From Cyanidioschyzon merolae (taxonomy: Eukaryota), in assembly GCA_000091205.1 (NCBI GenBank), contig AP006499.2: DNA of 64,000 bases; one strand, given 5' to 3'. Below the pieces are notes generated by a model. That model searched no databases. It worked only from the letters and a program-made list of their open reading frames with translations, and was not told the origin of the DNA. A program made the position numbers and the translations under genes. This document shows, in pieces, positions 790-56,530 of this stretch. How positions within the stretch are numbered: the stretch's first letter is position 1; every line of letters begins with the position of its first letter.

Positions 790-3545
790 CATCTCGCGAA
801 GTGAGCGCATCTGGGGGATCAGGCAGTCAATTGGAGCGACGCGCGTGTCGCCGTTGTTGAAGGGAAACGCGATGTTGATCTCTAGTGTGTTGTTCAGCTG
901 TAAAAGTTGTATTTGCGTTGGAGTCGAACAAAAATATAGTTTTCAATTCATTTGTGTTTCAGCCCTCAAACAAGTCTAGTCAAGTGTTCTTTCGCAGTAT
1001 ATAACAGAAGGGTTCACAGAGCGTTCTTTCTCAAGAAACTGAAAAAAGAAAAGTTATGAAAAGCAAGTCCACGATCCTGGAGGCCCAGGGCCGCCGGCTG
1101 CCAGACAAAAAAAACGAAAAACAGTGCCGAGTCCAGAAGAAAAGGAAGAGAAGAAGAACCGAAATGGGGAGGCCCTACGTCGAAGGCTGCAAGAAAGACG
1201 ACAGTACAACGAGATGGTGGTGAAAGCCTTTCTTCTTGGACATATCAAGGATCCGTACAGGGAAAAGTTGCGAGACGCTATCGAAAAACTTGTCGACTCG
1301 TACTCCAAGAGTACTGTCAAGGCGTCGTCAGGACTGATGCATTTGGCGAGGGAGATGTACGAAGACGTGGCGCACATGGAAACGGTCGAGATTCCGGACG
1401 AGTTTTTCGACAAGACGTTTATTCGTCACCTGATGCTTGGTACAGCGGAAACGCGGAGGGAAAATGAGCGGGTTCACGCTCTTCACGAAAACTTCGCGGA
1501 GCTCCGCTTCGAGAGTAATCGATACAGGGGTGATCGGGATATTTAGACAAACGGAGCGAAAAAGCACATCACCAGTCTGAAGTACCATTTGACAGTGAAC
1601 ATCGAACGTTTCGTGATACGGGCCGTGTTTCCACTCTACTCGAGCCTATCTCGCAATGGAAAATGGGCGATTATCAATGACATCACGAACGATCGTAATC
1701 ATGAAGATGAGGTCGAATTTGTCGACAAGAAGGCGGCAAACCAGAGCACGAATGAAGCTTCTGAAATCCGTGCGGTTATACAAGAGCACCGTGCGGTACT
1801 AGGGTTGGCGAATCCAACAGAAAAGATATCAGAGCTGAAAAAAGATAAGGAAAGATGCTATCGCCTCGTCTTACGGTATTTCGCGTTTTCGTTCCGAGAA
1901 CTCGAACCCAAGACCGAAAAGCGTCTGAGTAGGGGAAAAATGCAGAGTCGGAGAGACGGAAGGTTTTTGCAATGGGGAAGCGCTTCAACGTGGTTCCAAT
2001 GTGCAACATTAAGTCACATTTTGTGAGTATCGACTCCGGCGTCCTTTACGGCATCATGAAAGAGATCTGTCGGAGTTCAGTGTCAGCAGGGAGGAATTCA
2101 CCGGCGAAAACCGGGAGACGTACTGGAGGATTAACTTCAATTTCAAACGTCTGGAAGCGAGCAAACAGCAGGTATTCACTGGAATGATCGAAACCGATGG
2201 AGTAGCCTTGCGTGTACACTATCGGCGGTTGAAGAAAGATCGTCCAGTTCCGCCCTCGGCGAACCATGAAGATGAGAAGGAGGCGGATCCTGTGACGCAG
2301 GAGGTGGAGGATAACGACTTTATGGTTGGCGCGGCGAAGCATAAAGATGGGAAGGAGGCGGGTCCTGCGACGCAGGAGGTGGAGGATAACGACCTTGTCG
2401 TTGACGTAACGAAGGATGAAGATAAGAAGGAGGCGGATCCTGCGATGCAGGAGGTGGAGGATAGCCACATTGTCGTTAGCGCTACGAAGCATGAAGAAAA
2501 GAAGGAGGCGGGTCTTGAGACGCAGAAAGTGCATGATGACGACTTTGTCGTTGGCGCTGACCCCAGAAACACAAATATCATCACCATCGCAGCACCGAAG
2601 CGCGCAGAAGATAGTACTGACGGTAACTTGCGTCAGAAAGACATGCGTCTGCTGAGGTTCTCGAGAGCGAGATACGGCCGAGAATCGGGAATCATGAATG
2701 CAAGGAACAAAATCGAGACTTGGAATACAGGAATGAAGGATCTCCTGGAAGCTATGAGCAAGGTGACGAGCCGAGGAGCGGACTTTCATGCTTTTCGGGA
2801 GTTTATGCAAGTTCGTGTTGCTCATTGGGATGCACTGTGGGAGGAGTATACAAAGCCCCGGTGGGCTCGGTTGCGTATGAATTTGTACAGTGGGAAGCAG
2901 CGGGAGTTCGCGATCTTTTTCAATCACTTGAGTGCCCTCAAAGAGGACAAGACTCAAAGGCTCGTAGTAGCATACGGAGCAGGGCGCTGGGCGCCCAAGA
3001 AAGGTACTACGCCAGCTCCAACGACGAGGATGTACAAGTCGTGTGCACGGCGTTTTCTTACAATACCTGTAGATGAGTTTCGAATGTCCTACACACACCT
3101 CGAGCTGGTTTGTACACTTCAGAGGGTCGAGATGGAAAAGTGCCAGCCGAGCCCTGAGGAAATAGCAAAGTACGGACCGCTGACGGAGGAGCAAATGGAA
3201 AGGAGAGCGAAATTTCGTGGACTACTGGCACTGGTGAGTACAACTCCCAACGGCACGAATCGTATGGAGTTTGTTAACCGAGACTTTAACGCCGCTCTCA
3301 ATATAAGGAAATGTGCGGTGCTGGAGACGAGACCTCCAGAGTGGACAAGAGGGAACTTTTTTGGACAACCTCTTCAAGTTCAGTTATATGAGAAGAAGTT
3401 GGAAGCAGCAGTAGGTGGCCGGTCGAAAGAAACTGGAAGGCGTCTGTACGTCAGTTGGAGACTTCTTGGCTAGGGCACGGTTGCCGCCACTACTGTACAC
3501 CGCTGGCGTCGTTCGACTTTCGAACGGCGTTCGGATGCGGCGGAC
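790..3545 (+). mobile_element. TnpB/Fanzor-like (RuvC-nuclease) transposon, copy 1; pseudogenised
   Basis: About 2.7 kb homologous over its whole length to the reverse complement of 23445-26065 and 53700-56530. The 5' non-coding leader 'gcatctggggg..gtcgccgttg(ttg)aagggaaacgcgat..' is shared. The ORF encodes RuvC-I '[20 protein letters not shown]', '[25 protein letters not shown]' and RuvC-III 'NRDFNAALNIRKC'. A conserved tail 'ccactactgtacaccgctggcgtcgttcg' continues past the stop codon. Boundaries are approximate (+/-30 bp). Confidence 0.7.
1056..3473 (+). pseudogene. Fanzor/TnpB-like nuclease ORF of copy 1, interrupted
   Basis: Pieces 1056.., 1124..1546 (in-frame TAG where copy 3 reads YIYGAMKY), 1589..2026, 1972..2187 and 2184..3473 (429 aa intact C-terminal RuvC-like core). 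Frameshifts and the nonsense codon were found by comparison with the other two copies. Confidence 0.7.
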
Positions 3546-3567
3546 TCTTCGGCAGTTTTCGCTCACC

Positions 3568-5271
3568 ATGACACAGGTAGTCAAGAGAAGTGATGCGGAA
3601 ACCGAGTCCTCGTTGGGCGCATACGAGCGCGAGCGACTCGCGCGGATGGAACGGAATCGTATGCTCATGGAAAAGCTGGGTGTCACCTCACTTTCGAACC
3701 GGCTCGAGACGATCACGACTGTTCGGGAGCAAGCCCTCAAACCCATAGGTTACTCGAAACGCACGCCAAAGGCGGAGAAAAGGGCGCGCAATTCTGAAAA
3801 CGAAGTAGACCGTGGAGAGCTGGAGCCACGGCGTCGTTCGCTTCGTGTGCGGGGAATCGCCCCGGCCGGAGCTGGAACATCAGCAGAGGAACCGAAAAAT
3901 AGCCAGCTACAGCTGAAGGAAGAGGAAACATCAAGAGGTCCGTTTTTGGAAGACCAGACGTTCGCAGAGGTTGCCCTAGAAAACTATGGTGCCACTAGCG
4001 AAAGCTCCATGGTCAACGACGACTACGACCGCAGCGACGTAGACGACGTCGATGGTAACAAAGACGACGGAGACCAGAAGAGCTTGTGTACGCGGCGCGC
4101 CAGGTTGTTCCAGCGAGCCTGGTGCGGTGCAATGGCATGCACTTCCTTGTCGACAAGTGAGCATCTCGCGAAGGATCCAAGCCGTTTTCACCGCTGGGTG
4201 CTGGACGAGGCCTCGGGCTTCTTCAAGCTTGTTCCAGCACGTATTTATTCCGCAACCATGCATCCGCGTCTCGATGCATGGACCATGATGGTTGGCGACA
4301 AGGCAGGTCATGTGGGCCTTGCTGTTGTACCACGGGAACGCGTCGCAGAACATGCTGTTCAGGTGCTGTGTATGCGAGTTCACCGCGACACAACCGCTGG
4401 CATGGCACCACGTGCGGGTTCCGCCAACTCCCAACAGCTGCTAACAGTGTCCTACGACGGCAGTGCGCGCTTGCTAGATATCGAAAAACAAACAATTCAG
4501 ACAGTCCTCGTCGATGAGCGAGAACGAATTTTCAAGAGCATAGCGCTCAGTACAGAGAACGACAACGTCTTTTGGACCACTGCCAGCCATCGCTCACTTG
4601 GTGGATTCCTGGTTCGCCACGACCTTCGACAGAGCCAGAAATCGTTCGATGCTTTCGGTATCTCTGACAGCAGAGTCTACTCTGTTAGTTTACAGCATCA
4701 GGGCGCTGCAGGAGCAGTCCCCGGCCATGACGGTCTGCTGGCGGTCACGACGGCGCGAGATGGTGTTCTCATTTTTGATCAGCGTCGAATCGAGACTGGC
4801 GCTACTCGCCGATCAACATCAAAACCGCTTTTTGCTCTACCACACGAGCGCGCAACAACTGCAGCAACTTGGTCTCCGTCGGCGACGCGGCTGCTGACCA
4901 CCTGCTACGATGACTTGCTACGCATATGGCATTACGACGGCAGCGAGTGCTCGCTCGAACACCGCTTTGTACACAACAATCACACCGGTCGATGGGTTAC
5001 GCCTTTTGAGGCATGCTGGGACCCAGCTACGGACCACAAGATTTTTGCGTGTGGATCCATGAATCATAACCCGGTCCATGGCGTGGACCTCTTCCACGTG
5101 GAGCTCAACAAACGATCAGTCTGGAATCGGTTGACTGGCGAGCCCATGACGGCGATTGCGGCTGTCCTGGCCTGGCACCCGGCAGGGCATGCGCTCATAG
5201 GCGGGACTGCATCAGGCAGGGTATATCTATGGGGCGAAGCTCACGGATCTGAGGGCGTCCTCGCAGCGTGA
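3568..5271 (+). CDS. WD40-repeat protein (possibly WDR76/Cmr1-like)
   Basis: The ORF 3415..5271 begins inside the transposon tail, so the likely start is the ATG at 3568 (MTQVVKR). The C-terminal half has WD-like segments (LLAVTTARDGVLIFD, TCYDDLLRIWHYDGS) and the N-terminal part is acidic low-complexity. Confidence 0.45.
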   Translation: MTQVVKRSDAETESSLGAYERERLARMERNRMLMEKLGVTSLSNRLETITTVREQALKPIGYSKRTPKAEKRARNSENEVDRGELEPRRRSLRVRGIAPAGAGTSAEEPKNSQLQLKEEETSRGPFLEDQTFAEVALENYGATSESSMVNDDYDRSDVDDVDGNKDDGDQKSLCTRRARLFQRAWCGAMACTSLSTSEHLAKDPSRFHRWVLDEASGFFKLVPARIYSATMHPRLDAWTMMVGDKAGHVGLAVVPRERVAEHAVQVLCMRVHRDTTAGMAPRAGSANSQQLLTVSYDGSARLLDIEKQTIQTVLVDERERIFKSIALSTENDNVFWTTASHRSLGGFLVRHDLRQSQKSFDAFGISDSRVYSVSLQHQGAAGAVPGHDGLLAVTTARDGVLIFDQRRIETGATRRSTSKPLFALPHERATTAATWSPSATRLLTTCYDDLLRIWHYDGSECSLEHRFVHNNHTGRWVTPFEACWDPATDHKIFACGSMNHNPVHGVDLFHVELNKRSVWNRLTGEPMTAIAAVLAWHPAGHALIGGTASGRVYLWGEAHGSEGVLAA

Positions 5272-6965
5272 TTAGATCCACACGGTCGAGAATTCTAGAG
5301 CGAAACCACAGATCGCTTTGTAAGGATTCGCAGCGAGTACTCGGCCGCGACGACGATATCGAGAAAGAAAAGGGTAACAGCACGGCACTGGAATGACGTT
5401 GGCATGCGTTATGCCACGAATGACAGCACCAGTCGACAATGAGATGTTTGTCTGCTCGAGCGTTGGCGAAGAGAGAGACTTGATGATGATGATGATGATG
5501 ATGATGACGGGCCTGGGTCCTGAGCTGAAGAGCATCGTTGCCACCGCCGAATCTCTAAGTAAAAAAGGGCACAGCCGAAGACTTCAACAAGAACGCAGAT
5601 GCTGCTGCTCAACTTTTCCAGTGCTCGGTATCATCGACACTCGGGTATCATGGACGCCAGGAGGCATACCATCAAGAGGAATAGAGACGTCAGGTCCCAT
5701 TCCGACGCTCCGAACACCGTATCGAGCAGAGGATGGCGCTGTGTTCGCTTCATTGAGAGCGCTTCTGTATGCGTCCAAATCGCATATGCAGACGATTTAA
5801 GGCAGAAGTACATGAGATCCTGGTGCGGTTAGCAACGGTTGCAGTTTTATGGAGCCAAGAGGCGTAAATTCACCAACTTATTGAAAAGGGCATCTTAAGA
5901 AATGACCTACGATTCGCGTCGTTCGCTGGTATCCTATACCGTTGGACGCGCTATGCCAAGCCAAACCTGCACTGCTGTTCCTTCGAAGAGCACGTCTAGT
6001 GAGTGCAGGGATCGATGCAGCACGATTTCCATCCATGCGTTCAGTGCGAGACGGACGCCTCGCGAGCGAGGGTGCAGCTCGAAACATAGAGAGAAAAAGA
6101 ACGCGGAATAGAAAAGGATGCACGAGATCGTATACAGTATGCTGACGAAACGGCCATTTGCGCGGAAATCGCAAGTCAGCGACTTGCTATGATGTGATTC
6201 CATCGGCAAACACGTACACAAGCAGTTCCTGCACCCAGGCATCAAGGACTCGATCTCCATACGGGTGTGTCTCGTGCATCGGGAGGGTCCACGGGCTTTA
6301 TGCTGAGCGGAATTTCGAGAGAATGATGTAACATGCAGTATGGGTATTGTGCTGAATCGCCCAATAACTGCGATGATGAAACAAATCAATGGCGAGGAGA
6401 AATGGGATTTGATTCTGAACTGCAGCGAGGCACCGGTTTGGTGCGCTTCAGTAACCGAGAAAGTCTGCGTCCCTAAAGGAATACATCGGGGAGAAAGTTC
6501 CGGTAAAGCTGGTGAGCAATAATGGTGCTCCATAATTCGATATTCAGAGTTCTGCGAAAATGATCACAGCATACGACTTGGTTGAATATACGCACCGAAG
6601 ATGTGCAGCTGCCGCGATGTCAGCAATGTATCCTTCTGTGGCAAATCGCCAGGTCAGCGCCCAAGCTGCTTTTCAACGTGTTCCTGACTCGACAAATCAA
6701 TCACGAATCAAGTAGGCGGTTCTCTGTGGTCGTATCCATGAACTGAAGACAGTGAAACGCTCAAACAGCGACGATTTTGAGGACGATGATAGCTACTACA
6801 GCCTCGACGCCTCGCGGCATGAGATGCGGACGCAATCGAGCGAAGCAAACTTCTTCAGCGCTGTTCATCCAGCCATGGGAAGAGCGCCAGCCAGCGGCTT
6901 ACTCAACTGCGAAAGCGATCCGAGGATGTATCGCGCAGCCCGCCGACGTGACGCCTCAACAGACG

Positions 6966-14009: not shown

Positions 14010-15256
14010 CGCGGCGAAACGACGTTGACCACGACTTTGGCGACGATGACGATGACGCTGATAACGAACAGCGCTCTCTGAACGCCAGTTTCAAGTGCCT
14101 CGTCACGCCAGAAGCTCTAAGGAAACGTTCACGACAACGACGACGACAACAACAACAGCAACGACAACCACGAAGGAGCGTTAGACGTTCGCCAGCACAC
14201 CAGCGTCGCGAATGCTCCGAAACGGAACGCCGGAGCGGAGCGCGCCAGCCCGTCCAGATTCGGCAACGCGACGTCGGGCGAATCGCGCAGGCAGCAGCAC
14301 GGCGCGCCAGCGCCCAGAGGCCTCCGTATGGATGTGTTCCGATTTTGCTCAGATTTTACAGGATGTTGACACAGGCCAGCGTGCCGCCACGGGGTGGTGC
14401 GCGTGCGATCCGCGCGCGGTGAAGAAGCATCCAGCATACGACATCGGAGAACGCTGGCCTAAGTAAACGTTTTGTCAATGAAAAAAATCCAGCATTCGAC
14501 GCCCTATGTCCAAATTCTATAATCCATGCTTCCTTCCGAACGGACTGGCCGTTCCATACGCTCTATCGTGCGCCGAGTGCGTGCGTTGCTGCATCCGCAA
14601 TAGAGCATATATCGCAGGTGCTTGTGCAGCTCGGAGATAGAACGGCTCTTCGATACCACCTAGGGCGCTTCGGCTCGAGGTATCATGCATTCAACACCGG
14701 ATCGCGTCTCTCCATCATTCTGGGGGCCTGCAAGCTGCGCAGCGAGACTGACTGCCCACGACAGCGCGAAACGATACGCAAGGAGATAACTGCAACCGGG
14801 GCGATACCTGGATGCATGCTACCCGCCCCTAGTCTCAAAATGAACCGCGTTACGGATGAGTCGCTGAGAGCTGACTACAGCTCCCGCCACTGTAGAAGAA
14901 TACGGAGCGATAGCCCGGTAGATGCGTCCATCTCGGGGGATCTTACGCCTAGCAGCTAAACATTCGACAATACGGAACGCTTCCCGCCCCTTTTCAACGC
15001 TTACCACGAAGGTGTAACGAAAAAATGGTCGCGTTGCTCGTTCATGATTCGTTGCTGTTCTCGGTTTTGGGTAGCCAGTCGCGATCGATCGCGGATCGCT
15101 GGCGGCCGCACGTTGCCGGCGGGCATGAACGGCCGCCGCACCTGCATCCGCTTACGGAGGCGGCTTCTGGCCACTCGGGCATATCTTGAAATATTTCAGA
15201 CGCAGAGACTAGCACTTTGCGCTGAAGAGTTGGTTGACCGAAGAGACGTGAACGGC

Positions 15257-23439: not shown

Positions 23440-23444
23440 TTGTA

Positions 23445-26065
23445 AAGCACGGGTCTGCGTCTTACTTAGCGATGAGCCGCCACGAACGATAAACGTCTTT
23501 CAAAAGAAAAACGCTGTCGCCAGTCGTGTACAGTAGTGGCGACCGGCGCCTTAGACAAACCGTCTCCAACTCAGTGTAGACGCCTCCCCGTCTTTTGGAC
23601 CGGCCACCTACTCCTGCTTCCATTTTTTTCTCATATAGTTCCACTTTGGGAGGTTGTCCAAAAAAATTGTCTCTTGGCAAGTCGTCTCCAGCACCGTACA
23701 TCTCCGTATACTGATAGCGGCATTAAAGTCACGATTCACAAACTCCATACGTTTCTTGCCATCACTGGTTGTGCTAACCAATGCAAGTAGTCCCCGAACT
23801 TTCGCCCTGCTTTCCATTTGCTCTTCCGTCAGCGGTCCATACTTTTTTATATCCTCAGGGCTCCTCTGGCACTTTTCCATATCGACCCTCTGAAGTGTAC
23901 ACCCCAGTTCATGGTGTGTATACGATGTTCAAATTTCATCTACAGGTATCGTAACGAAACGCCTTGCGCACTCCTTGATCGTTCCTGTCGTTGGAGCTGG
24001 CGTAGTCCCTTTTTTCGACGCCCAGCGCCCTGCTCCGTATGCTACAACCAGCCTCTGACTTTCATTCTCCTTGAGGGCACTCAACTCATTGAAAAAATTC
24101 GGAAATCCCCGCTGCTTCTCACAGTATAGATTCATCCGCAGACGAGCCGACCGGAGCTTTGTATACTCTTCCCAAAGTGCATCCCAATGCGCAACATGAA
24201 CTTCCAGGAACTCCCAGAACGCTTCAAAGTCCGCTCCACGGCTCGTCATCTCGCTCAGAGCTTCCAGGTGATCCTTCATTCCATGTCTCGACTTTCTTCC
24301 TCGCATTCATTATACCGGATTCTCGATGGTATCTTGCTCTCGAGAACCTCAAAAGACGCATGTCTTTCTGACGAAAGTTGCCCTCAGTACCATCTTCCGC
24401 ACGCTTCGGTGCTGCGATGGTGATGATATTTGTGTTTCCGGGGTCCGCGCCAACAACAAAGTCGTTCTCCTGCACTTTCTGTGTGGCAGGATCCGCGTCC
24501 TTCTTTTCTTCATGCTCAGCCGCGCCAACGACAAGATCGTTATCCTCCACCTCCTGCATCACAGGATCCTCCTCTTTGTTTTCTTCATCCATCGTTACGG
24601 GCGCAGCCGAGGGCGGAACTGGCCAATCTTTCTTCGACGGCCGATAGTGTACACACAAGGCTACTCCATCAGTTTCGATCATCCCAGTGAATACCTTTTG
24701 TTTGCTCACTTTGAGACTTTTGAAATCGAAGACGTTCTTCCGGTACGTCTCCCGGTTTTCGCCGGTGAATTCCCCCCCTGCTGACACTGAACCCCAGACT
24801 GATCTCCTTCATGATGCCGTAAAGGATTCTGGAATCGATGCTCACAAAATGTGACTTGATGTTGCACACTGGAACGGCACTGAAGCGCTTCCCCATTAGG
24901 AAAGTCTTCCGGTCTAACGACTCTTCATTTTTTCCTCACTCAGATCCATCTCCGCCTTGCGTTCGAGTTCTCGGTCCAAAAATACGAAATCGCGCAGAAT
25001 TAAGGGACCACATCTTTTTCTATGTCTTCTCATATCTGATACCTCTGCTGCTGGATTCGCCAGCCCCAAGACTGCACGTTGCTCTTGTATAGCCTCACGG
25101 ATTGCAGAAGCTTAATTCTTTCTCTTGCGTAATCTCTTCTTGTCAACGAACTCGATCTCATCTTGATACTTTCGATCGTTCGTGATGCCATTGATAATCG
25201 CCCATTTTCCATCGCGAGATAGGCCCGAGTAGAGTGCAAACATGGCGCCTATCATGAAACGTTCGAGGTTTACTGTCAAATGGTTCTTCAGATTCGTGAG
25301 GTACTTCATCGCCCCATAGTCGTAAATATCCCGGTCACCCCTGTATCGAGTACCCTCGAAGCGGAATTCCGCGAAGTTTTCGTGGAGGGCATCCACTAGC
25401 ACATTTTCCTTCAGCGCTTGCGCTGTACCAAGCATCAGTTGACGAGTCAAGGTCTTGTCGAAGAATTCTTCCGGAATCTCGACCGTTTCCATGTGCATCA
25501 CGTCGCCGTACATCTCCCTCGCCAAATGCATCAGCCCTGACGACGCCTTGACAATACTCTTCGAGTCTGAGTTGACACGTTTTTGATAGCATCTCGCAAG
25601 TTTTCCTTCGACGGATCCTTGATATATTTAAGAAGACCGGCGTTCACCACCATCTCGTCGTACTGTCGTCTTTCTTGCCGCCTTCGACGTAGCACCTCGC
25701 CCTTTTGCTTCTTCGCCTTTTCCTGTTCCTCTATATTCGGAACTGGTTCCGTTTTTCTCCGGCAGCTGTCCACGCTACTCCTCCAGGATATTTTACTTCC
25801 TTTTCCATAACTTTCCTTTTTTCAGTATTTTTCGGAAAGAACGCTCTTCGAACGCTTCTGTTATAAACCGCGAAAAATCACTTGAATTATCTAAACCGAA
25901 GTTTGAGACACGATTGAACAGAAAACTATAGTTTGCTATGACTTGAACGCAAATGCAACTTGTACGGCAGAGCAAGATCATAAACATCAGGACCACGTTT
26001 CCCTCCAACGGCAACATGCGCGTAGTATCTCATGCCTGCATGATCTCCCAGGTACGCGTATCGAA
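23445..26065 (-). mobile_element. TnpB/Fanzor-like transposon, copy 2; pseudogenised
   Basis: ORF fragments 25812<-25531, 25531<-25112, 24896<-24669, 24787<-24224 ([17 protein letters not shown]), 24306<-23929, 23880<-23608 (NRDFNAAISIRRC) and 23701<-23462 are homologous in order to copy 1. The stop codon is lost, so the frame reads into the conserved tail. The tail ends ~30 bp from the proA ATG. Confidence 0.7.
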
Positions 26066-27031
26066 CACACTATGTGGAACAAAGAACAGAGACGAACGAT
26101 TCACGAGCTTCGATATATATATATATTTCGTTCCCCCCTCTACGATGAACGTTACAAGGGGGAAAGATTTCGGTATTTTAGAAAGTTTACCTCCTAGGCG
26201 GAAGGTCCATAGAGCCGTACGAGTCTGCTAGGCTGGTGCTCGGTGTGCCTCTAAAGTGGCTGGTGCTTTAGCGAGACCTGAGCAACTCGTCTGCAACGCA
26301 GTTTATACTAGGTCTCGGATAGGGTATGCTGCGTTTGGGCGTCGCCCAGGTCCTAGTGGGCTCCTTGTATATCGCTTCGCGCTACCACAGGCAGAACGTC
26401 TCTCTGTACAGCTTGCAGGCTCCCAGAATGATAATTAACCGTGATTCCGTGTCAGGTGTAGGATTCTGCGAGCCGACGCCCTCAGTGGTATGGCAAAGTC
26501 GTTCTGTCTCCGTGCAGCGTCTGCCCCAGTGGTATACGCGCTACGGCGGGTGCAGCAAGGCAGGCACTCGGCACACGACAGAACATACGAAACGGCCAGT
26601 ATACCCGAGAGGAAGTATAAGTAGTGGAACTTGAATGTAGGTGCTTCATCACTGACGCTTTCCCGCAAGCCATGACCCATCCCGAATTCTGGGATGCATG
26701 GTCAATGTAATCGTTTTGTCATCTGGAAAAACAGCAACATGAACATCGACGACATGCGTCATGAGAAACGTGCCAAGGAATGCTAGTCATATACAAAGCG
26801 GTCATGCGAATCCAGAAATCATGGACATGGGCATCGCAATGCCGGTCCATGATCGACAGCCATGCGAACATGCATGACATGTCCATTGCAATGCGACAAT
26901 CTATGACATGCGGCGATGAAAGAGCGTGCAGCGAACGCGCGCGCCGATCGACATGGCGCGCCGCGATCGAGACGCGCGCGTCGTTCGCGCGGCGGTGACC
27001 TGTTTTCGGTAACGCACAAACGACGACGAGT

Positions 27032-27757: not shown

Positions 27758-30316
27758 GCTTGCGTATCGTTTGCGCTCTGACCAGTGGGCATCGTTGGAT
27801 TGTGGTGCTCGCAGCCGTGTCTGCCGCGCTGACTTATCTTCTCCTCCAGCAAAAGTGTAGATGTTGCTTAGGCGGCTGCAGAGAGCACGATCGTGAACAT
27901 AGGCACCGGTTCCTGAAAGGTCGTCGCTGTATCTGCGGGTCCTGGCTCCACTGTTGATGCAGCAGTCGCTGGGATTCCGGGCCGGGCGAGAAGATCTGAA
28001 AAGTGTACAAGCGACTTAGGCGCAAGGAGCAAGTTGCGTGGACGGATCGACGCGGTCTTCTTATCGAGAGAACGCGAGCAATCAGGGTACTGTCACTTGC
28101 GCTCGACCAAGACTGGCGGTTCGTTTCCCGCGTGGCATCTGTCGTGCTATCCAGGAGCCGCTGCGCGTCACCGTCACGCTCGGTAGGCTTGATGCGGTAT
28201 TCCGCAAACTGGACTGGTTTGAGCAGCATGACGTAACGTTGTGTGGATGCTGTCGCCTTGTTCGCGTTTCCAGGACACCTGCTTTGGGTAGTCCAGTCGA
28301 GTACACGTAGCTTTCTGATGCTACAAGCTCGATAGACCCGTTACCCACGCGTGCGCATTTTTGCAGCCTTTACTGGCACTCCACAGAGCGTATCTACTTC
28401 GTCGAACGTAGGCGACATGGCGCACGGGCCGAGCAAGTGATCATCTAGGTGCGATCAAAACGGTACATTGCCATCCACGACGCAAGAGCGCTTGGTAGAC
28501 GGCATGCAACCATACCAGCATTTATTGCATAGTGCATAATGCGCATCCAGCGTATATCACTGACGAGAGGCGGGCGTGTCGCAGAGAAGACACGCCAGCT
28601 ACGCAGGTCTGAGATTGCGATTGGAGCAGGGCGTTGCGAGCGGCGACGCTCAATGAAGAGCCAACGGAATCCAGTGGCTGGGCACTAACGATACCCCGCA
28701 CAACGCTGGTTGTACATGGAAACTATCTAGCATATACTCAGCAATAGCGAATAACAGAACGCCATCATGGTTCACAAACTGCACAGGAAAGTTGTTCGCG
28801 GTATATACATACGGCGCTCGTGCTGTACTGCGTTGCGGACCGCACCATACCAGTGCCTTGCTTCGGGCGAGAATTCTAAGGGACTCCTCTCGAGGCTTTT
28901 GGATTTTAGTCATAGAAAGTCTCGAACGTTTCAGCACAATGCCCAGACTGCGTATTAAACGATTTTCTCGTACATTCGCTCGAGCCGAAGCTGCTGCATG
29001 CCACGGATGCATGCCACATTTCCAAATGTTTACGAATACCCAGAGGTCTCGGTGCCGAACGTCAGCACACGCACTGTTGCCGGTGGACGCACACCAGCGC
29101 AAGCCGCTCACCATCGATTGCCACTCCACGTGACGTTCGGTCCGCGTACCGTGCAGTATACTGTGCACTCGTCTCTGTTTCATGCTCTTCTTCTCTAGCT
29201 GTCTCAACGGGCGCCCTCGCTGGTGATGCGTTCATGTCATCCTGGATGCATCGACGGGAATGGTAACGAATCGAATCCTGCATTCGGTGAACGCGCTCGT
29301 CGAAGGTACAGGTGGGCGCCAATGTGTGATGCAGCATCTCCAGCGCCACTGGACAGAACCAAACGACACGAATTATCCGTCATTGCCTTTCCAGACACAT
29401 TGAACAAGCTGATGAGTGCAAGCCTCGTGCCCGAGTATGCCAGGAACCGTTGGCAAGCCGAGCGCTGTCCCGGGCACGCTCTAAAGCGTGCGTTGATACC
29501 TTCCATCGGTGCCCTGTTTTCTGGGCGATTGGCCTCAGGCTGCGATGGGTACAACCCAGACACGGTGCGCTTCATTCAGCGTTCGAGACCGATCCGTATC
29601 TAATTTTTGAGGCTGGTCTGATCATTGGTGGCAGCAGCGAAATAAACTTTTTTTGCGACGGCTGAAATCGCTTGGCGAAGCGTCGAGGTATTCTGGAGAG
29701 CGGGGCTTCGAATCTCTGATCCTTTGATCGGGCCGTCTCGCATCCTCTGTCCAGCACATCCTTCATGCTGTCGCGTGATGCCCTAATCGAGACATGATAG
29801 GGAAATGGGAATAGATGGGAGCTCTGCGTCCGGAAACTCGTACGACCGGTTCGTGGACGGGATATGTCAAGGCGAGCGTAGCCAGGCACGTCTTCTTCGA
29901 GTAAGAAGCTATGCGACTTTTAAAGGTGTCTTGCACCTTTCAGTATTAGGGAAGCGAACGACTCTTGTATGGATTCATGGGCGCTAGAACGGTGTGTGAA
30001 AACAGAGCGAATGCCTTTGACAGGATTCAACCTGGGAGAACATGCTGGCACGACGTCGAGTCGGCGCCAAGCTTAGCTTTGTTCCCAATAACCGATTTTT
30101 AGTGGCCGAAAAAGACGGTGCATAAGAGCAGGACAGAAGAATACGGGAAGCAGACGCCGCAGAATGTGCTTCGGCCAAGGATCCGGGGTTGAATGATTCG
30201 CTTTGTTCGTGGATCCATGGGGAATCACAGGATTGCATGGTCATCAGGGCGGGTATTGTCGGGAAGCACGTTGATCGCTCTCGTTTACGAACAGCAGTGT
30301 TTTATTCTTCGAGTAC

Positions 30317-41689: not shown

Positions 41690-41765
41690 CGCCTCAACAC
41701 ATCAGGGGCGCTCGCCGTCGCATGAATCGTCAGACGCCGTGGACATGCGCGAGCCGTACGATGGA

Positions 41766-42543: not shown

Positions 42544-42739
42544 CGAGGAAGTACGCCAAGCATCAAGCGGCCGTCACGTGTGCGTGCTGCTCCCGGTCGC
42601 ACGCGCGCTCCTGCCGCCGACCCAGGCGATCTCGCGTCGGGCGCGCACCGCATTATGTCTGTACCATGCTTTGTTTGCTATTTAGGGTATCTTCTCATCG
42701 AAGAAGCGCCCTGGGACCTAACATCCAACTACACCAAGC

Positions 42740-43213: not shown

Positions 43214-44842
43214 AACGGCTGGAGCCGTCTGGGCACACGTACTGTCCAGAACCTGTGCACCGGGAATAGTCCCTATGATGAAAAATTCCTATTTTACTCG
43301 GAACGTAAAGCACGGCGCGAATCGCTTTCGCCTTGAGCCGCCGACGCATCCGCGCGCCGTATTTTTTGACTGCGGCCGCATTTGAGTCTGGCGTCTTGTC
43401 CATGCGTTGTGAGCGCGCGATAACGTGCAGGAGAAACGAGTAGTTCCAGAAGGTGCACCAGACACCATTCGGGTCGTAGGCCGATCTCCAAACGGCTTTT
43501 TGCGAGACGCACCTGTGAAGATGGAGGCTGTCGAGAGCGCGCGCCCTGCTCCGCACTGTACCAAATTCCGGGGACGATCGCGTTCGAGCGCGGGAGCAGC
43601 GCCTCCCGTAAGCAATACGGACCCCATCAAGGCAACCGCCGGGGCTGCGATGCGCGCTACCCCTGCGGGTGATGGCTCCTGAACGTGCACCATCACAGCT
43701 GGGCGTACCAGCGAGCGAACAAAGCGCATCAGCGAGCAGAGCACATGATCGTATGGAACATCGGCATCGGGGGAGCTTTTACTCGTATACGCTGTAGCAT
43801 CAAACGAATACTTAAACCCACATATACCAAGCATACCTACAAACCCGACGATTGTTTGCCCCTAACCGCACAAGCGGATGCATCGCAGCGGCGGCGGCGG
43901 CGGCGGCCGGGGCCGCTCCATATTTCTCCAGCAGGGATCCGATCGTTGACGCATCAAGCGGGTATCCCGGGATGGCGCGATCGCTGCCAGCCTCTGGAAT
44001 GCGGCTCCAGTCGGGACGGGGCGGGACCAGCCGGGCGTGCCCGCTGGTGTGGCATTCTCGACGCATGCCCAGTCGATGCTCCTCGGCGGCGCGTAAAATC
44101 GGCATCACCACCCGTCCGTGCGAACGTGCTGTGCGCATGCAAGAACGATGAGCTGCAGCGCTCTCGCAGACAGCGTCAGGCGACGTCGAGTTCGAGTGTG
44201 TGGGTTTTTTTTCATTGAGAAAACGTTTACTTTGGCCAGCGTTCGCCGATCATGCGCATTGTTCTTTTCTTACCTTTTTTTCTCTTTTTTTCCAGTGCGC
44301 GGTAATGTATCTATCAACCCCCCACTCCCAAGTTACATTACCTGCACTTCTTCTCGGATATTCTGGTCGTTTCGTACGTCCAATCGTGTGCCTAGTGCCT
44401 GCCGAACGCGACAGCAATAGCGCCTATAGCGCCGGTACGGTCGCTGCACGGAGACAGAACGGCGTTGCTGTACCACACAAAGGGCGCCGGCTCGAGGTCG
44501 AGTGTGTGGGTGAGCGCGCGCGCGCGCGCGCGCGTGATCAGAGCGAGGCACACCGCACGCACACCTAGAGTCGCTGTCCATGCGCCACGTGTGCATGAAC
44601 CCCGCGCACCGGTCCAAAACGGAGCGTGCGCCGTACCACCCCGGTGATCCAGGCGCGCCAAACTGGGACTAGGCGCGGCATCGCGACGAGCCTCTCGCAG
44701 AGCGCCCGTTAGCGACGTCCCGCACCGGCGCCGCCCAGTCGAGAACGAATGCCGCCCCCCGGTGATGCCAGACGCGCGCGAATGTTCGCCACTGTCGGAA
44801 TGCTTCCTGTTGCTGCGTGCTGGAGCAATACCTCGGACGGGA

Positions 44843-47550: not shown

Positions 47551-47699
47551 GGCTTTGTTGAGGCAAGTTAGCAGGTCGATTAACGCTGAGATTTTACTGG
47601 AGGTGAGCAGACACTATTGTCGCGTGGCGAAGGCACTACATAACGGTACGCACTAGCAACAGCAACAGCAGAAACTGCAAGGTGAAGACTGTTCCAAGG

Positions 47700-52790: not shown

Positions 52791-52912
52791 GAGTATTGGT
52801 TGCTGCTGATGACAGCGGAAATAGATCCAAAGTTGAGCATGTACTCCCGAGTTAGCAGAATGCACCTGTTCCATTTTTATATTAACATTGGCGTAGAATG
52901 GATCAGGTTCAT

Positions 52913-53707: not shown

Positions 53708-56530
53708 CGAAACGAGCCCAAAACGTGCGATGAACGACGCCGACCGTGTACAGCAGTGGCGAACCGTACGCCCTGGACAGACCGTGTCCAACTGACGTGT
53801 AGACGCCTCCCCGTCTTTTCGGACCGGGCATCCACCACTGCTTCCAACTTCTTCTCATATAATTCCACTTTTAGAGGTTGTCCAATAAAGTTCTCTCTTG
53901 TCCAATCTGGAGGTCTTTCCTCCAGCACCGCACATTTCCTTATATGGATAGCGGCATTGAAGTCTCGGTTCACATACTCCATCCGTTTTTTGTTGCCATT
54001 GATTGTACGAACAAGCGCAAGGAGTCCACGAACGTTCGCCCTTCTTTCCATTTGCTCCCCCGTCATCGGTCCGTGCTTTGCTATTTCCTCAGGGCTCCGT
54101 TGGCACTTTTCTATCTCCACTCTCTGAAGTGTACACCCCAGTTCCTGGTGTGTATACGATGTTCGAAACTCATCTACAGGTATCGTAACAAAACGCCTTG
54201 CGCACGCCTTGTACACCCTCGTCGTTGGAGCTGGCGTAGTTCCTTTTTGGGTCATCCATCGTCCTGCCCCGTACGCTACAACCAGCCTTTGACTTTCATC
54301 CTCCTTCAGGACGCTCAACTCATTGAAAAATTCGCGAACGCCCGCTGGTTCCCACAATACAAATTCATTCGGAAACGAGCCCACCGGGGCTTGGTATACT
54401 CCTCCCACAGCGCATCCCAATGGGCAACACGAACTTCCATGAATTTCCGAAAAGCTTCAAAGTCCGCTCCACGGCTCGTCATCTCGCTCAGAGCTTCCAG
54501 GTGATCCTTCATTCCATGTCTCGACTTTCTTCCTCGCATTCATTATACCGGATTCTCGATGGTATCTTGCTCTCGAGAACCTCAAAAGACGCATGTCTTT
54601 CTGACGAAAGTTGCCCTCAGTACCATCTTCCGCACGCTTCGGTGCTGTGATGGTGATGATATTTGTGTTTCCGGGGTCCGCGCCAACAACAAAGTCGTTA
54701 TCCTGCACTTTCTGTGTCACAGGACCTGCCTTCTTGGTTTCTTCATGCTTCTCCGCGTAAACGACATGCACGTTATCCTCCACCTCCTGCGTCGCAGGAT
54801 CCACCTCCTTCTTTTCTTCATCCTTCGCCGCGTAAACGACAAGGTCGTTATCCTCCACCTCCTGCATCGCAGGACCAGCCTCCTCCCTTTCTTCATGCTT
54901 CGTCGTGTCAACGACAAGGTCGTTATCTTGCACCCTCTGCGTCGCAGGATCCGCCTCCTTCTCATCTCCATCCTTCGCCACGTCAACGACATGCACGTTA
55001 TCCTCCACCTCCTGCGTCGCAGGACCAGCCTCCTCCTTTTCTTCATCCTTCGTCACGGGCGCAGCTGAGGGAGGGACTGGCCGATCTGCCTTCAACCGCC
55101 GATAGTGTACACACAAGGCTACTCCATCGGTTTCGATCATTCCAGTGAATATCTTTTGTTTGCCGACTTTGAGCCGTTTGAAATCGAAGATATTCTTCCA
55201 GTACGTCTCCCGGTTTTCGCCGGTGAACTCTGTCCTCCTTACATCGAACTCCGGACTGATCTCCTTCATGATGCCGTAAAGGATTCTGGAATCGATGCTC
55301 ACAAAATGTGACTTGATGTTGCACATTGGAACCACGTTGAAGCGCTTCCCCATTAGGACAGCCTCCCGTCTCTCACACGCTTCATTTTTTTCCTCACTCA
55401 GCTTCGTTTCTGCCTTGCGTTCGAGCTCTCAGTCCAGAAACACGAAATATCGCAGGACGAGGCGATAGTATCTTTTCTTATCTTTTTTCATCTCTGATAT
55501 CTTGTCTGTTGGATTCACGAGCCCCAAGACTGCACGGTGCTCTTGTATAGCCGCACGGATTCCAGAAGCTTCATTCGTGAACTAGTTTGACGCTTTCTTG
55601 TCAACGATTTCGACCTCATCTTCACGCTTGCCATCTTTCGTGATGCCATTGATCATCGCCCATGTTCCTTTGCGAGATAGGCCCGGGTAGAGTGCAAACA
55701 CGGCGCGTATCATGAAACGTTCGAGGTTCACTGTCAAATGGTTCTTCAGGTTCGTGATGTACTTCATCGCCCCGTATATGTAAAAATTCGAGTCGCCCTT
55801 GTATCGAGTACCCTCGAAGCGGATTTTGGCGAAGTTTTCGTGGAGGTGCACTAGCACATTTTCCCTCCGCGTTTTCTCTCCACCAAGCATCAGGTGTCGA
55901 ATAAACGTCTTGTCGAAAAACTCGTCCGGAATCTCGACCGTTTCCATATCCGTCACGTCGCGATACATCTCCCTTGCCAAATGCATCAGTCCTGACGACG
56001 CCTTGACAACAATCTTGGAGTACGAGTCGACACGTTTTTTGATAGCGTCTCGCAACTTTTCCCTGTAGGGATCCTTGATATGTCCAAGACGAAAGGTTTT
56101 CACCACCTTCTCGTCGTACAGTCGTCTCTCGTGACGCCTTCGACGTAGGGCCTCCCCCTTTCGGTTCTTCTTCTCTCCCTGTTCTTCTGGACTCGGCACT
56201 GTTTTTTGTTTTTTTCTAGCAGCCGGCGACCATGGCCCTCCAGGATCGTGGACTTGCTTTTTCATAACTTTCCTTTTATTAGTTTTTTTTTGAAAAAGAA
56301 CCCTCTTTGAACCCTTGTGTTATATACTGCGAAAAAACACTTGACTAGACTTGTTTGAGGTTTGAAGCAAAAACGAACTGAAAGACTGTACTTTGCCACG
56401 TCTTTAACGCAAGTACAGCTTGCACATTAGAGCAGCACGCTATTGATCAGGATCGCGTTTCCCTTCAACGGCGACAAGTGCGTCGCATCAGTTGACTGCC
56501 CGATCTCCCAGATGCGCTCAGTGAGCGCGC
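53700..56530 (-). mobile_element. TnpB/Fanzor-like transposon, copy 3; pseudogenised
   Basis: Collinear with copy 1. Pieces are 56265<-55582 (227 aa basic N-terminus 'RKKQKT..KKNRKGEALRRRRHERR'), 55353<-54457 (298 aa with ~6 acidic repeat units and [17 protein letters not shown]), 54539<-54315 and 54420<-53704 (VDEFRTSYTHQELGC..NRDFNAAIHIRKC). Confidence 0.72.

What the first reader, a model, noticed from the sequence alone, without database searches (positions are those of the whole stretch)
790..56530. A TnpB/Fanzor-like RuvC-nuclease transposon family is present in three copies in a eukaryotic nuclear locus
Three ~2.7 kb homologous elements (790-3545 on +, 23445-26065 on -, 53700-56530 on -) encode one long protein. 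It has a Lys/Arg-rich NLS-like N-terminus (RKKQKT..KKNRK..RRRRHERR) and a RuvC-I-like '[21 protein letters not shown]'. A 'VDEFRTSYTH.ELxC..C' segment follows, matching the TnpB 'V.p.YTSq.C..CG' bridge. The RuvC-III signature 'NRDFNAA(L/I)NI' is the hallmark D-x-N-A-A-x-N-I of TnpB/Cas12/Fanzor. Eukaryotic TnpB homologues are known as Fanzor, and Fanzor1 is embedded in diverse transposons, but this family shows several non-canonical features. There is no glutamate at the expected RuvC-II position ('[11 protein letters not shown]'). The zinc finger is degenerate (C-x9-C only). An acidic repeat is inserted next to RuvC-I. These suggest a divergent, possibly undescribed Fanzor lineage or a partly inactivated derivative.
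Basis: partly seen in the sequence, partly recalled or inferred. Interest (0 to 1): 0.85.

Follow-up and report, generated by a model that had tools for sequence, protein, structure and literature searches.

The report
Known Fanzor1 transposon copies, decayed

Summary
The window is Cyanidioschyzon merolae 10D nuclear DNA. It holds three copies, 80-85% identical to each other, of one ~2.8-3.2 kb element. All three are broken by frameshifts or stop codons.

The copies match the published CMe-1A consensus at 83-87% identity. A protein rebuilt from the three copies matches the published Fanzor1 protein CMe-1 (Bao & Jurka 2013).

A family profile hits solved Fanzor1 structures: PpFz1 at E=2.7e-21 and SpuFz1 at E=7e-12. 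An AlphaFold model matches SpuFz1 at E=1.3e-15 with TM 0.73.

- **"Missing" RuvC-II glutamate:** this is the normal Fanzor arrangement. The glutamate sits in the invariant VDEFRT motif instead.
- **Zinc finger:** the loss is real and applies to the whole subfamily. None of 94 relatives has the C4 finger.
- **Acidic insert:** it is a 75-bp tandem repeat of variable copy number, predicted to be disordered.

Details I did not find in the papers I read:
- A sharply defined 3' end carrying a conserved terminal hairpin, a candidate omega-RNA end.
- Several different 5' modules.
- A bias for copies to sit just upstream of same-strand host genes.
- Two older Fanzor1-like relics elsewhere in the window.

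Verdict: a real feature that is already known. Interest is low.

The parts
577..3531 (+). Copy A of the CMe-1A-type Fanzor1 element. It is a pseudogene and lacks the TE-N2_CMe 5' module, carrying a different 5' module from 577 to about 815.
   Evidence: blastn to the published CMe-1A consensus: window 816-3529 matches consensus 670-3169 at 83-87%. Homology to seven or more related loci begins at window 577. The 3' end ...GGCGTT falls at 3531. tblastn HSPs lie in three frames.
2184..3473 (+). Longest surviving ORF of copy A (429 aa). It runs from the end of the WED domain through the acidic repeat to the RuvC and TNB-equivalent region. RuvC-I reads DPR instead of DPG.
2260..2558 (+). Acidic 25-aa (75-bp) tandem repeat between the WED strand and RuvC-I, 4.0 copies in copy A.
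   Evidence: TRF. The equivalent residues 374-470 of P0001 are disordered in the AF2 model, with pLDDT about 30. The published consensus has one unit.
3474..3531 (+). Conserved non-coding 3' tail of copy A. It contains a GGCn...CGCC stem, the motif ACTACTGTACAC (3489-3500) and the terminal hairpin (3505-3531). It is a candidate 3' part of the omega-RNA scaffold and/or a transposition signal.
   Evidence: Alignment of 29 distinct copies shows conservation stopping exactly after GGCG(T/G)T. The terminal hairpin folds in about 25 of 29 copies, in two sequence variants.
23492..26723 (-). Copy B, a full-length CMe-1A copy (consensus positions 2-3169) that includes the 5' TE-N2_CMe-like module (about 26090-26723). 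It is a pseudogene.
   Evidence: Frameshifts and a stop codon after VDE are shown. The repeat has 1.9 units at 24445-24588. The terminal hairpin lies at 23492-23516.
53738..56542 (-). Copy C, which lacks the TE-N2 module and has its 3' terminal hairpin truncated. It is a pseudogene, but all three catalytic motifs are still readable.
   Evidence: The repeat has 4.8 units at 54696-55052.
14503..15061 (+). Solo TE-N2_CMe-like element. It matches the 5' 635-bp module of CMe-1A at consensus positions 84-634, 73% identity.
   Evidence: Bao & Jurka describe TE-N2_CMe as a separate element with about 70 copies.
44328..44497 (-). Fragment of a TE-N2_CMe-like element (consensus positions 91-256, 78% identity).
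   Evidence: one search gives the match as reverse-complement.
5551..6354 (+). Old, heavily decayed relic of a second, more divergent Fanzor1-type gene. It spans the REC2/RuvC region, contains stop codons, and the catalytic E and D are no longer recognisable.
   Evidence: tblastn: P0055 at E=2.7e-28 and 33% identity; CMe-1 at E about 1e-19 to 5e-23 and 31% identity. Translation.
28926..29464 (-). Second decayed relic of a divergent Fanzor1-type gene (C-terminal RuvC region).
   Evidence: tblastn: P0055 at E=1.6e-15 and 37% identity; CMe-1 at E=1e-10. Translation.

Best explanation
**What it is.** The three elements are old, inactivated copies of CMe-1A. This is the known non-autonomous transposable-element family of Cyanidioschyzon merolae whose single gene encodes the Fanzor1 protein CMe-1.

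**How the ancestral protein most likely worked (inferred from characterised Fanzor1s).** It was a nuclear, RNA-guided double-strand DNA endonuclease with WED, REC and RuvC domains.
- Its active site is the Fanzor-type rearranged triad: D of DPG (RuvC-I), the alternative E of VDEFRT, and D of NRDFNAA (RuvC-III).
- Its guide RNA (omega-RNA) would be transcribed from the 3' end of the element. That region overlaps the end of the ORF and the conserved 58-nt tail with its terminal hairpin. Transcription would read into the flanking DNA, which supplies the guide.
- Cleavage of sites that have lost the element would favour its retention or spread.

**What differs from the characterised enzymes.** This subfamily has lost the C4 zinc finger of the TNB domain. 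The C. merolae lineage added a disordered acidic tandem repeat in the linker before RuvC-I.

**Shown here:** identity with CMe-1A; Fanzor1 homology by sequence profile and by fold; conservation of the triad; absence of the zinc finger; the pseudogene state of the window copies; a defined 3' end with a conserved hairpin.

**Inferred, not shown:** omega-RNA expression, nuclease activity, and the way the element is mobilised.
For: **Host.** The ORF at 21967-23439 is identical to C. merolae 10D glutamate-5-semialdehyde dehydrogenase BAM81960.1.

**Identity with CMe-1A.**
- The published CMe-1A consensus (3169 bp) aligns to all three copies at 83-87% identity, and to copy B over positions 2-3169.
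- The published CMe-1 protein (734 aa) aligns end to end with the protein rebuilt from the three copies, at 76% identity with the repeat difference included.
- Bao & Jurka describe about 150 copies, about 80% identical to the consensus, about 3 kb long, without TIRs. This fits what is seen here.

**Fanzor1 homology.**
- A profile of 37 family members matches PpFz1 9cf0 at E=2.7e-21, SpuFz1 8gkh at E=7e-12 and GtFz1 9cer at E=4e-6. The DPG, DEFRT and NRD motifs align to the corresponding motifs of those proteins.
- The AF2 model of P0001 has pLDDT 78.9 and pTM 0.76. Foldseek against the PDB gives SpuFz1, PpFz1 and GtFz1 at E=1e-15 to 2e-13, with target-normalised TM up to 0.73. Cas12 and TnpB hits are far weaker.

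**Active site.** D, P and G of RuvC-I, E and R of DEFR, and R, N, A, N of the RuvC-III motif are invariant in 37 proteins that are only 26-40% identical to P0001; the RuvC-III Asp is nearly invariant (≥90%).

**Selection.** Third-codon-position divergence among A, B and C (0.20-0.24) exceeds that at second positions (0.11-0.13). Part of the divergence therefore arose under protein-coding constraint.

**3' end.** Conservation in 29 distinct copies ends sharply at GGCG(T/G)T. The terminal hairpin is kept in two different sequence versions.
Against: - No window copy is intact, so nothing here can be functional now.
- No RNA expression data are available, and RNAalifold on the MAFFT alignment found no consensus structure.
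- The hairpin evidence rests on per-sequence folds and essentially two lineages of arm sequence.
- The C4 zinc finger, conserved in SpuFz1 and ISDra2 TnpB, is absent. No zinc-finger-less Fanzor1 has been tested biochemically in the papers I could read, so nuclease activity of this subfamily is an extrapolation.
- A single-sequence search finds nothing significant in Pfam (Cas12f1-like_TNB, E=0.28) or among PDB sequences.
Confidence: 0.92

Rival explanations
1. The elements represent a new, undescribed Fanzor lineage.
For: Single-sequence Pfam and PDB searches find nothing significant. The precomputed Pfam label for homologues is a domain of unknown function, PF26935 / DUF8286. The zinc finger is missing.
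Against: The consensus DNA and protein of exactly this family, from exactly this species, are in the supplementary files of Bao & Jurka 2013. They align over their full length at 83-87% (DNA) and 76% (protein) identity. The Volvox proteins VCa-1 and VCa-2 in the same paper carry the same motifs without a zinc finger.
Confidence: 0.02
2. The family is a catalytically dead derivative, for example an RNA-guided DNA-binding protein or a domesticated host gene. The argument is that it lacks both the RuvC-II glutamate and the zinc finger.
For: There is no Glu in VVAYGAGRW. No C4 finger is present in 94 of 94 relatives. ApmFz2 needs its alternative Glu for activity, so the active site is sensitive to change.
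Against: - The alternative Glu and both Asp residues are conserved (invariant or ≥90%) across relatives only 26-40% identical to P0001. They align with the catalytic residues of PpFz1 and SpuFz1.
- Loss of the canonical Glu is universal in active Fanzors.
- Zinc-finger loss is known in large TnpB branches that are regarded as active.
- About 150 dispersed copies with a defined 3' end is the pattern of a mobile element and does not fit a domesticated gene.
Confidence: 0.1
3. This is a refinement of the best explanation and does not exclude it. CMe-1A may be mobilised by a rolling-circle or one-ended mechanism, as Helitron2-type elements are, like the Fanzor1 families CRe-1, -2 and -3 of Chlamydomonas. 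The terminal hairpin would then be a DNA transposition signal at least as much as an RNA element.
For: - There are no TIRs and no TSDs.
- The 3' end is sharply defined, with a 10-11-bp hairpin 1-2 nt from the end.
- The 5' ends are heterogeneous, with at least three different upstream modules.
- 5'-truncated copies and solo 3'-end fragments of 96 to more than 700 bp exist.
- Bao & Jurka describe the same pattern (intact 3' ends, variable or truncated 5' ends, a 3' hairpin) for the Helitron2-borne Fanzor1 families.
Against: - No RepHel gene was seen in the window or in the loci.
- The Helitron2 hallmarks were not established: a 5' hairpin and asymmetric terminal inverted repeats. The only candidate is a 9-nt inverted match, which I spotted by reading the consensus sequence. 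It pairs consensus positions 5-13 with about 3098-3106, lies about 65 nt from the 3' end and not directly upstream of the hairpin, and could be chance.
- G·U pairs in the hairpin favour an RNA role.
- One relative (P0055) travels with a DDE_3 / Tc1-mariner transposase instead.
Confidence: 0.2
4. The resemblance to TnpB/Fanzor is a chance match of short motifs on an unrelated fold.
For: Only an 11-residue sub-threshold Pfam match is found at NRDFNAAINIR (E=0.28).
Against: The profile-to-PDB E-values reach 2.7e-21 over more than 300 aligned positions. The whole-chain fold match to SpuFz1 has E=1.3e-15 and TM 0.73.
Confidence: 0.01

Closest known systems
CMe-1A transposable element / Fanzor1 protein CMe-1 of Cyanidioschyzon merolae (Bao & Jurka 2013, Mobile DNA 4:12)
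   Same: Same species. DNA identity to the consensus is 83-87%. The single ORF and the protein are the same. There are no TIRs or TSDs. Copies are about 80% identical to the consensus. Copy B also carries the 5' TE-N2_CMe module.
   Different: - Copies A and C lack the TE-N2 module and carry other 5' sequence.
- The window copies have 2-5 units of the 75-bp acidic repeat, against one in the consensus.
- All three window copies are pseudogenes.
Spizellomyces punctatus Fanzor1 (SpuFz1, PDB 8GKH/9CEU-9CEZ), with PpFz1 and GtFz1
   Same: The overall fold matches (TM 0.73 on the target). So do the DPG RuvC-I motif, the alternative Glu in D-E-[FY]-[RK]-T-S, the RuvC-III Asp and the eukaryotic host.
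   Different: - Only 12-15% identity in the structural alignment.
- The CCCC zinc finger of the TNB domain is absent; CMe-1 has a helical insert there instead.
- An acidic disordered repeat precedes RuvC-I.
- The omega-RNA has not been determined experimentally.
Prokaryotic TnpB (ISDra2 TnpB, PDB 8H1J) of IS200/IS605 and IS607
   Same: RuvC fold and RuvC-III signature. The predicted logic is the same: a guide RNA encoded at the right end of the element.
   Different: - TnpB has the canonical RuvC-II Glu, a D-hydrophobic-G motif at RuvC-I and a C4 zinc finger. It is about 400 aa long and has a TnpA partner.
- CMe-1 has none of these. The structural match to TnpB is only local (Foldseek E=0.04).
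Chlamydomonas Fanzor1 families CRe-1, -2 and -3 on non-autonomous Helitron2 elements
   Same: A non-autonomous element carrying only a Fanzor1 gene. The 3' end is intact and bears a hairpin, the 5' ends are variable or truncated, and copy number is high.
   Different: - The CRe proteins keep CxxC...CxxC.
- Helitron2 ATIRs, the 5' hairpin and the T-rich target were not demonstrated for CMe-1A.

Membership tests
CMe-1A TE family (C. merolae) | Nucleotide similarity to the published 3169-bp consensus over the length of the element | tested here: met
   83-87% identity. Copy B covers consensus positions 2-3169, copy A 670-3169 and copy C 646-3145.
CMe-1A TE family (C. merolae) | Encodes the CMe-1 Fanzor1 protein (734 aa) | tested here: met
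   The reconstructed consensus protein aligns to CMe-1 residues 1-734 at 76% identity. tblastn of CMe-1 hits all three copies.
CMe-1A TE family (C. merolae) | 5' 635-bp module nearly identical to TE-N2_CMe | tested here: inconclusive
   Present in copy B only. Copies A and C, and most metagenomic copies, start at consensus positions of about 640-690 with other upstream sequence.
Fanzor1 | RuvC-I motif DPG | tested here: met
   Invariant D484, P485 and G486 in 37 relatives. It reads VGADPGNTN in copies B and C and DPR in copy A.
Fanzor1 | Rearranged RuvC-II: no Glu at the canonical site, and an alternative Glu just before the zinc-finger position (D-E-[FY]-[RK]-[TS]-[TS]) | tested here: met
   The canonical site is AYGAGRW / AYGSAKF. 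E656 and R658 are invariant. The motif aligns with DEFRTS of PpFz1 and DEYKTS of SpuFz1.
Fanzor1 | RuvC-III Asp in the R-D-x-N-A-A motif | tested here: met
   R724, N727, A729 and N731 are invariant and D725 is nearly invariant (≥90%). The motif is present in all three window copies.
Fanzor1 | C4 zinc finger (CxxC...CxxC) between the alternative Glu and RuvC-III. It is part of Bao & Jurka's motif, but Yoon et al. 2023 say only that 'many' Fanzors have it. | tested here: not met
   None of 94 family representatives has two CxxC motifs, and 93 have none. The C-x9-C of CMe-1 lies in a lineage-specific insert and is not conserved. CMe-1 was nevertheless classified as Fanzor1 by the authors who defined the family.
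Fanzor1 | Significant sequence and fold similarity to experimentally characterised Fanzor1 proteins, stronger than to Fanzor2, TnpB or Cas12 | tested here: met
   Profile against PDB sequences: only Fanzor1 chains are hit, at E=2.7e-21 to 4e-6. Foldseek: the top seven hits are all Fanzor1, and TnpB or Cas12 hits have E of 0.01 or worse.
Fanzor1 | Omega-RNA encoded at the 3' end of the element, with the guide taken from the flank | tested here: inconclusive
   The 3' tail is conserved and non-coding, carries a terminal hairpin and has a sharp boundary. There are no expression data, no Rfam family matches, and RNAalifold was uninformative.
Fanzor1 | RNA-guided, TAM-dependent double-strand DNA cleavage | not testable with these tools
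   This needs biochemistry.
Prokaryotic TnpB (IS200/IS605, IS607) | Canonical RuvC-II Glu, D-hydrophobic-G at RuvC-I, and an associated TnpA (Y1 or serine recombinase) | tested here: not met
   The motif is DPG and the Glu is the alternative one. The element has no second ORF. The host is a eukaryote.
Helitron2-type non-autonomous element | 3'-terminal hairpin, plus a 5' hairpin with asymmetric terminal inverted repeats, and a RepHel-encoding autonomous partner | tested here: inconclusive
   The 3' hairpin is present. The 5' terminus is unresolved. ATIRs were not demonstrated. I could not search the whole genome for RepHel.

The most novel reading that the evidence does not exclude
CMe-1 belongs to a large Fanzor1 subfamily. 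An exhaustive search finds 1232 cluster representatives at E of 0.001 or better.
- This subfamily has entirely dispensed with the C4 zinc finger of the TNB domain, yet it keeps the catalytic triad under purifying selection.
- If these proteins are active RNA-guided nucleases, the zinc finger is dispensable for Fanzor function.
- In the compact C. merolae genome, copies sit preferentially within about 200 nt upstream of same-strand host genes. Read-through transcription from the element's 3' end (the omega-RNA unit) may therefore have been tolerated, or used, as a promoter for the downstream gene.
Probability: 0.3. Interest if true: 0.45.

Novelty: already known. Interest (0 to 1): 0.2.

Why it matters
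As it stands, this is a correct re-discovery of a published Fanzor1 transposon family in the genome where it was first reported, so it adds little.

The side observations could be useful to people who mine Fanzors for genome editing or who study how these elements move:
- A whole Fanzor1 subfamily without the zinc finger. Pfam labels it only as DUF8286.
- A precisely defined 3' end with a conserved hairpin, for an element whose ends and classification were left open in 2013.
- A statistically supported tendency to lie just upstream of host genes in the same orientation.

Tried and rejected
- **Single-sequence searches.** The reconstructed protein, the copy A ORF and P0001 gave only sub-threshold hits in Pfam (Cas12f1-like_TNB, E=0.2-0.3). 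A narrow profile of close relatives gave nothing against PDB sequences. Homology became visible only with a profile of distant relatives.
- **Word-indexed protein search.** It returned only close relatives (24 hits). The exhaustive HMMER search was needed.
- **RNA structure.** RNAalifold on the MAFFT alignment of 3' ends predicted only four invariant pairs, because the two hairpin variants differ by an indel and are out of register. I used per-sequence folds instead.
- **Rfam.** No family matched anywhere in the window.
- **TSDs and TIRs.** Inspection of the junctions of the three copies found none.
- **True 5' end.** I could not define it. There are at least three upstream modules. The copy A type continues upstream through a (TGG)n tract, and in related loci it is preceded by a 3'-end fragment of another copy.
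- **Empty site.** I looked for an empty orthologous site for copy B in other strains. All contigs examined carry the insertion.
- **Downstream target motif.** A possible G(A/T)TGGTG motif appears in some flanks only, and I did not pursue it.

Full report
**Observation.** Self-comparison of the window finds three homologous segments, 79-85% identical to each other: 780-3514 (+), 23518-26057 (-) and 53732-56542 (-).

ORF lists show that each copy is split into several reading frames. A three-way alignment lets a single reading frame be restored by undoing one 1-nt indel, one 8-nt deletion and one TAG codon. This gives an 807-aa consensus protein.

No copy is intact:
- Copy A keeps a 429-aa C-terminal ORF (2184-3473), but its N-terminal half is broken and RuvC-I reads DPR.
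- Copy B has several frameshifts and a stop codon directly after VDE.
- Copy C has one stop codon and two frameshifts.

**Host.** The ORF at 21967-23439 is identical to glutamate-5-semialdehyde dehydrogenase of Cyanidioschyzon merolae 10D (BAM81960.1 / XP_005537996.1). The window is therefore nuclear DNA of this red alga. Its close relatives are abundant in hot-spring metagenomes.

**It is a published family.** A literature search for Fanzor plus Cyanidioschyzon leads to Bao & Jurka 2013 (PMC3627910). They list one Fanzor1 family in C. merolae, CMe-1A. They describe about 150 copies, each about 80% identical to a roughly 3-kb consensus, with no TIRs and with TSDs undetermined. The 5' 635 bp of the consensus is 95% identical to a separate element, TE-N2_CMe.

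Their supplementary files hold the consensus DNA (3169 bp) and the protein CMe-1 (734 aa).
- The consensus aligns to the window at 83-87% identity. Copy B matches positions 2-3169 (window 26723-23494), copy A matches 670-3169 and copy C matches 646-3145.
- Two solo TE-N2-like pieces lie at 14503-15061 and 44328-44497.
- CMe-1 aligns end to end with my reconstructed protein at 76% identity. The lower figure is due to the extra repeat units.

**Is it really a Fanzor?** Single-sequence searches are nearly blind here. Pfam gives only an 11-residue sub-threshold hit to Cas12f1-like_TNB at NRDFNAAINIR, and PDB sequences give nothing.

An exhaustive HMMER search with the near-intact metagenomic homologue P0001 (752 aa) finds 1232 cluster representatives at E of 0.001 or better. 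Many are full-length proteins of 600-700 aa at 30-42% identity. A profile of 37 of them hits only Fanzor1 chains among all PDB sequences:
- Parasitella parasitica Fz1, E=2.7e-21.
- Spizellomyces punctatus Fz1, E=7e-12.
- Guillardia theta Fz1, E=4e-6.

In these alignments the family's DPG, DEFRT and NRD motifs align with the same motifs of those enzymes.

An AlphaFold2 model of P0001 (mean pLDDT 78.9, pTM 0.76) matches SpuFz1, PpFz1 and GtFz1 as the top seven Foldseek hits. E-values run from 1.3e-15 to 2e-13, and target-normalised TM reaches 0.73. Cas12 and TnpB follow only at E of 0.01 or worse. The protein is specifically Fanzor1.

**The "non-canonical" features.**

1. *No glutamate at [11 protein letters not shown] This is the rule for Fanzors.
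   - Jiang et al. 2023 (PMC10530073) and Yoon et al. 2023 (PMC10711439) show that all Fanzors replace the canonical RuvC-II Glu. They use an alternative Glu located a few residues before the zinc-finger position, together with a DPG motif at RuvC-I.
   - In this family the E and R of VDEFRT and the D, P and G of RuvC-I are invariant across proteins only 26-40% identical to P0001.

2. *The zinc finger really is missing.*
   - Of 94 family representatives that span the Glu-to-RuvC-III segment, none has two CxxC motifs and 93 have none.
   - The family consensus there is ...vRGLLWC.ST...kFVNRD. C. merolae has [10 protein letters not shown] plus a roughly 25-residue helical insert, which holds the non-conserved C-x9-C.
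   - SpuFz1 and ISDra2 TnpB share a CCCC finger. Zinc-finger loss is known in some large TnpB branches, and Yoon et al. say only that "many" Fanzors have the finger.
   - I found no explicit description of a Fanzor1 clade without a zinc finger in the papers I could read. However, VCa-1 and VCa-2 of Volvox, in Bao & Jurka's own data, belong to it.

3. *The acidic insert.* It is a 75-bp (25-aa) tandem repeat, with 4.0 units in copy A, 1.9 in B, 4.8 in C and one in the published consensus. It lies in a linker between the last WED strand and RuvC-I that is variable across the family. The model predicts it to be disordered (residues 374-470, pLDDT about 30).

**Signs of past function.** Divergence among copies A, B and C is higher at third codon positions (0.20-0.24) than at first (0.135-0.17) or second positions (0.11-0.13). 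Much of the divergence therefore arose in lineages that were still under protein-coding selection. This agrees with Bao & Jurka's remark on the long-lasting coding capacity of the family.

**Ends of the element.** I fetched 71 related loci from hot-spring metagenomes and mapped them to the consensus.

*The 3' end is sharp.* In 29 distinct copies, conservation stops exactly after ...GGCG(T/G)T, and the flanks are unrelated. The 58-nt non-coding tail after the stop codon contains:
- a GGCG...CGCC stem;
- the almost invariant motif ACTACTGTACAC;
- a terminal hairpin of 10-11 bp ending 1-2 nt from the end.

The hairpin exists in two sequence versions, GCGUCGUUCGA-CUU-UCGAACGGCGU and AACGUUUUUC-UUUU-GAAAGGCGUU. 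Both fold, and about 25 of 29 copies form the hairpin. G-C is exchanged for U-A at the seventh position from the end, and there are several U·G to U-A or C-G changes.

This is what one expects for the 3' part of a Fanzor omega-RNA scaffold next to the guide. Fz1 omega-RNAs are 75-150 nt long and overlap the ORF end. It could equally be a DNA signal for transposition. The evidence is limited in three ways: RNAalifold on the MAFFT alignment was uninformative, Rfam has no match, and I have no expression data.

*The 5' side is heterogeneous.* The shared core begins near consensus positions 640-650. Upstream sequence falls into several classes:
- TE-N2_CMe in direct orientation, as in the published consensus and copy B.
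- TE-N2_CMe inverted.
- A third module shared by copy A and seven or more loci, starting at window 577.
- Unique sequence, as in copy C.

5'-truncated copies and solo 3' fragments also occur. I found no TSDs or TIRs.

The combination of a fixed 3' hairpin end with variable 5' ends resembles the Helitron2-borne Fanzor1 families of Chlamydomonas described in the same paper. However, I could not establish the Helitron2 hallmarks. In addition, one relative from a brine metagenome lies next to a DDE_3 / Tc1-type transposase. How CMe-1A is mobilised remains open.

**Position relative to host genes.** In all three window copies the 3' end lies about 3-55 nt upstream of the first ATG of a same-strand host ORF:
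- Copy A lies upstream of the ORF that ends at 5271.
- Copy B lies upstream of the dehydrogenase gene, whose ATG is at 23439.
- Copy C lies upstream of the ORF that ends at 52913.

I tested this across 41 distinct insertion sites.
- The nearest ORF of 200 aa or more downstream of the 3' end is on the same strand in 28 cases and on the opposite strand in 9 (binomial p=0.0026).
- A same-strand ORF of 120 aa or more starts within 200 nt in 24 of 41 sites, against 24.6% of random control positions (p=4e-6).

ORFs are only a crude proxy for genes, and the controls include positions inside genes, so the orientation test is the more robust of the two. One possible reading, which is inference only, rests on the element having to be transcribed across its 3' end to make a guide. 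Such an element would be best tolerated, or even useful as a promoter, just upstream of a gene in the sense orientation.

**Other Fanzor relics.** tblastn with CMe-1 and the family proteins also hits 5551-6354 (+) and 28926-29464 (-). Amino-acid identity is 30-37%, with E down to 2.7e-28. Both regions are littered with stop codons, and the catalytic residues are no longer recognisable. They look like fossils of a second, older Fanzor1-type family. Bao & Jurka list only one family for this species.

**Verdict.** The suggestion of novelty is not. This is CMe-1A / Fanzor1 CMe-1, published in 2013 from this very genome, and the missing RuvC-II glutamate is standard Fanzor biology. The window copies are pseudogenes.

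The residual interest lies in four side observations: the subfamily-wide loss of the zinc finger, the defined 3' hairpin end, the gene-proximal orientation bias and the two older relics. None of them changes the classification.

Noticed in passing
window 5551-6354 (+) and 28926-29464 (-): Two further, much more divergent Fanzor1-like relics. Amino-acid identity to CMe-1 and P0055 is 30-37%, with tblastn E down to 2.7e-28. Both are full of stop codons and have lost the catalytic residues. This suggests a second, older Fanzor1 family in C. merolae, where Bao & Jurka list only one.
   Followed up: partly
3' ends of copies A (3531), B (23492) and C (about 53738); loci L004-L074: Element 3' ends lie just upstream of same-strand host ORFs. 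In the window the first ATG is 3-55 nt away in all three copies. Across 41 distinct sites the nearest long downstream ORF is same-strand in 28 and opposite in 9 (p=0.0026). An ATG-initiated ORF starts within 200 nt in 59% of sites, against 25% of controls (p=4e-6).
   Followed up: partly
window 3474-3531 (+), 23492-23549 (-); alignment A4: The non-coding 3' tail is conserved, with the near-invariant motif ACTACTGTACAC and a terminal 10-11-bp hairpin present in two compensating sequence versions. Conservation stops exactly at ...GGCG(T/G)T. Bao & Jurka left the ends and TSDs of this family undetermined.
   Followed up: partly
window 577-815 (+); loci L006, L037, L059, L064, L071, L074: Copy A carries a 5' module different from the TE-N2_CMe module of the published consensus. 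Seven or more other loci share this module. In several of them a 96-430-bp 3'-end fragment of another copy lies about 600 bp further upstream. In the window, a (TGG)n tract at about 555-575 interrupts the homology.
   Followed up: partly
window 14503-15061 (+) and 44328-44497 (-): Solo copies or fragments of the TE-N2_CMe element (73-78% identity to consensus positions 84-634 of CMe-1A). In metagenomic loci, TE-N2 pieces often sit next to the 5' end of Fanzor copies, in either orientation.
   Followed up: partly
proteins P0054-P0203 (relatives of the window protein): The whole subfamily lacks the C4 zinc finger: none of 94 representatives has it. There are 1232 representatives at E of 0.001 or better. 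Precomputed Pfam labels these proteins only as PF26935 (DUF8286), which is not linked to TnpB or Fanzor.
   Followed up: partly
locus L075 (brine metagenome contig), 541-1449 and 1607-3706: The closest non-Cyanidioschyzon relative, P0055 (41% identity), lies directly downstream of a DDE_3 / Tc1-mariner-type transposase gene. This is the Mariner association known for other Fanzor1s.
   Followed up: no
window 41766-42544 and 32620-33142: Two young tandem arrays unrelated to the Fanzor elements: 88 bp x 8.9 copies and 109 bp x 4.8 copies, both 98% identical between units.
   Followed up: no
window 17442-18612 versus 59786-60962: Three collinear blocks of 66-73% nucleotide similarity on the same strand, probably a pair of paralogous genes within the window.
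   Followed up: no
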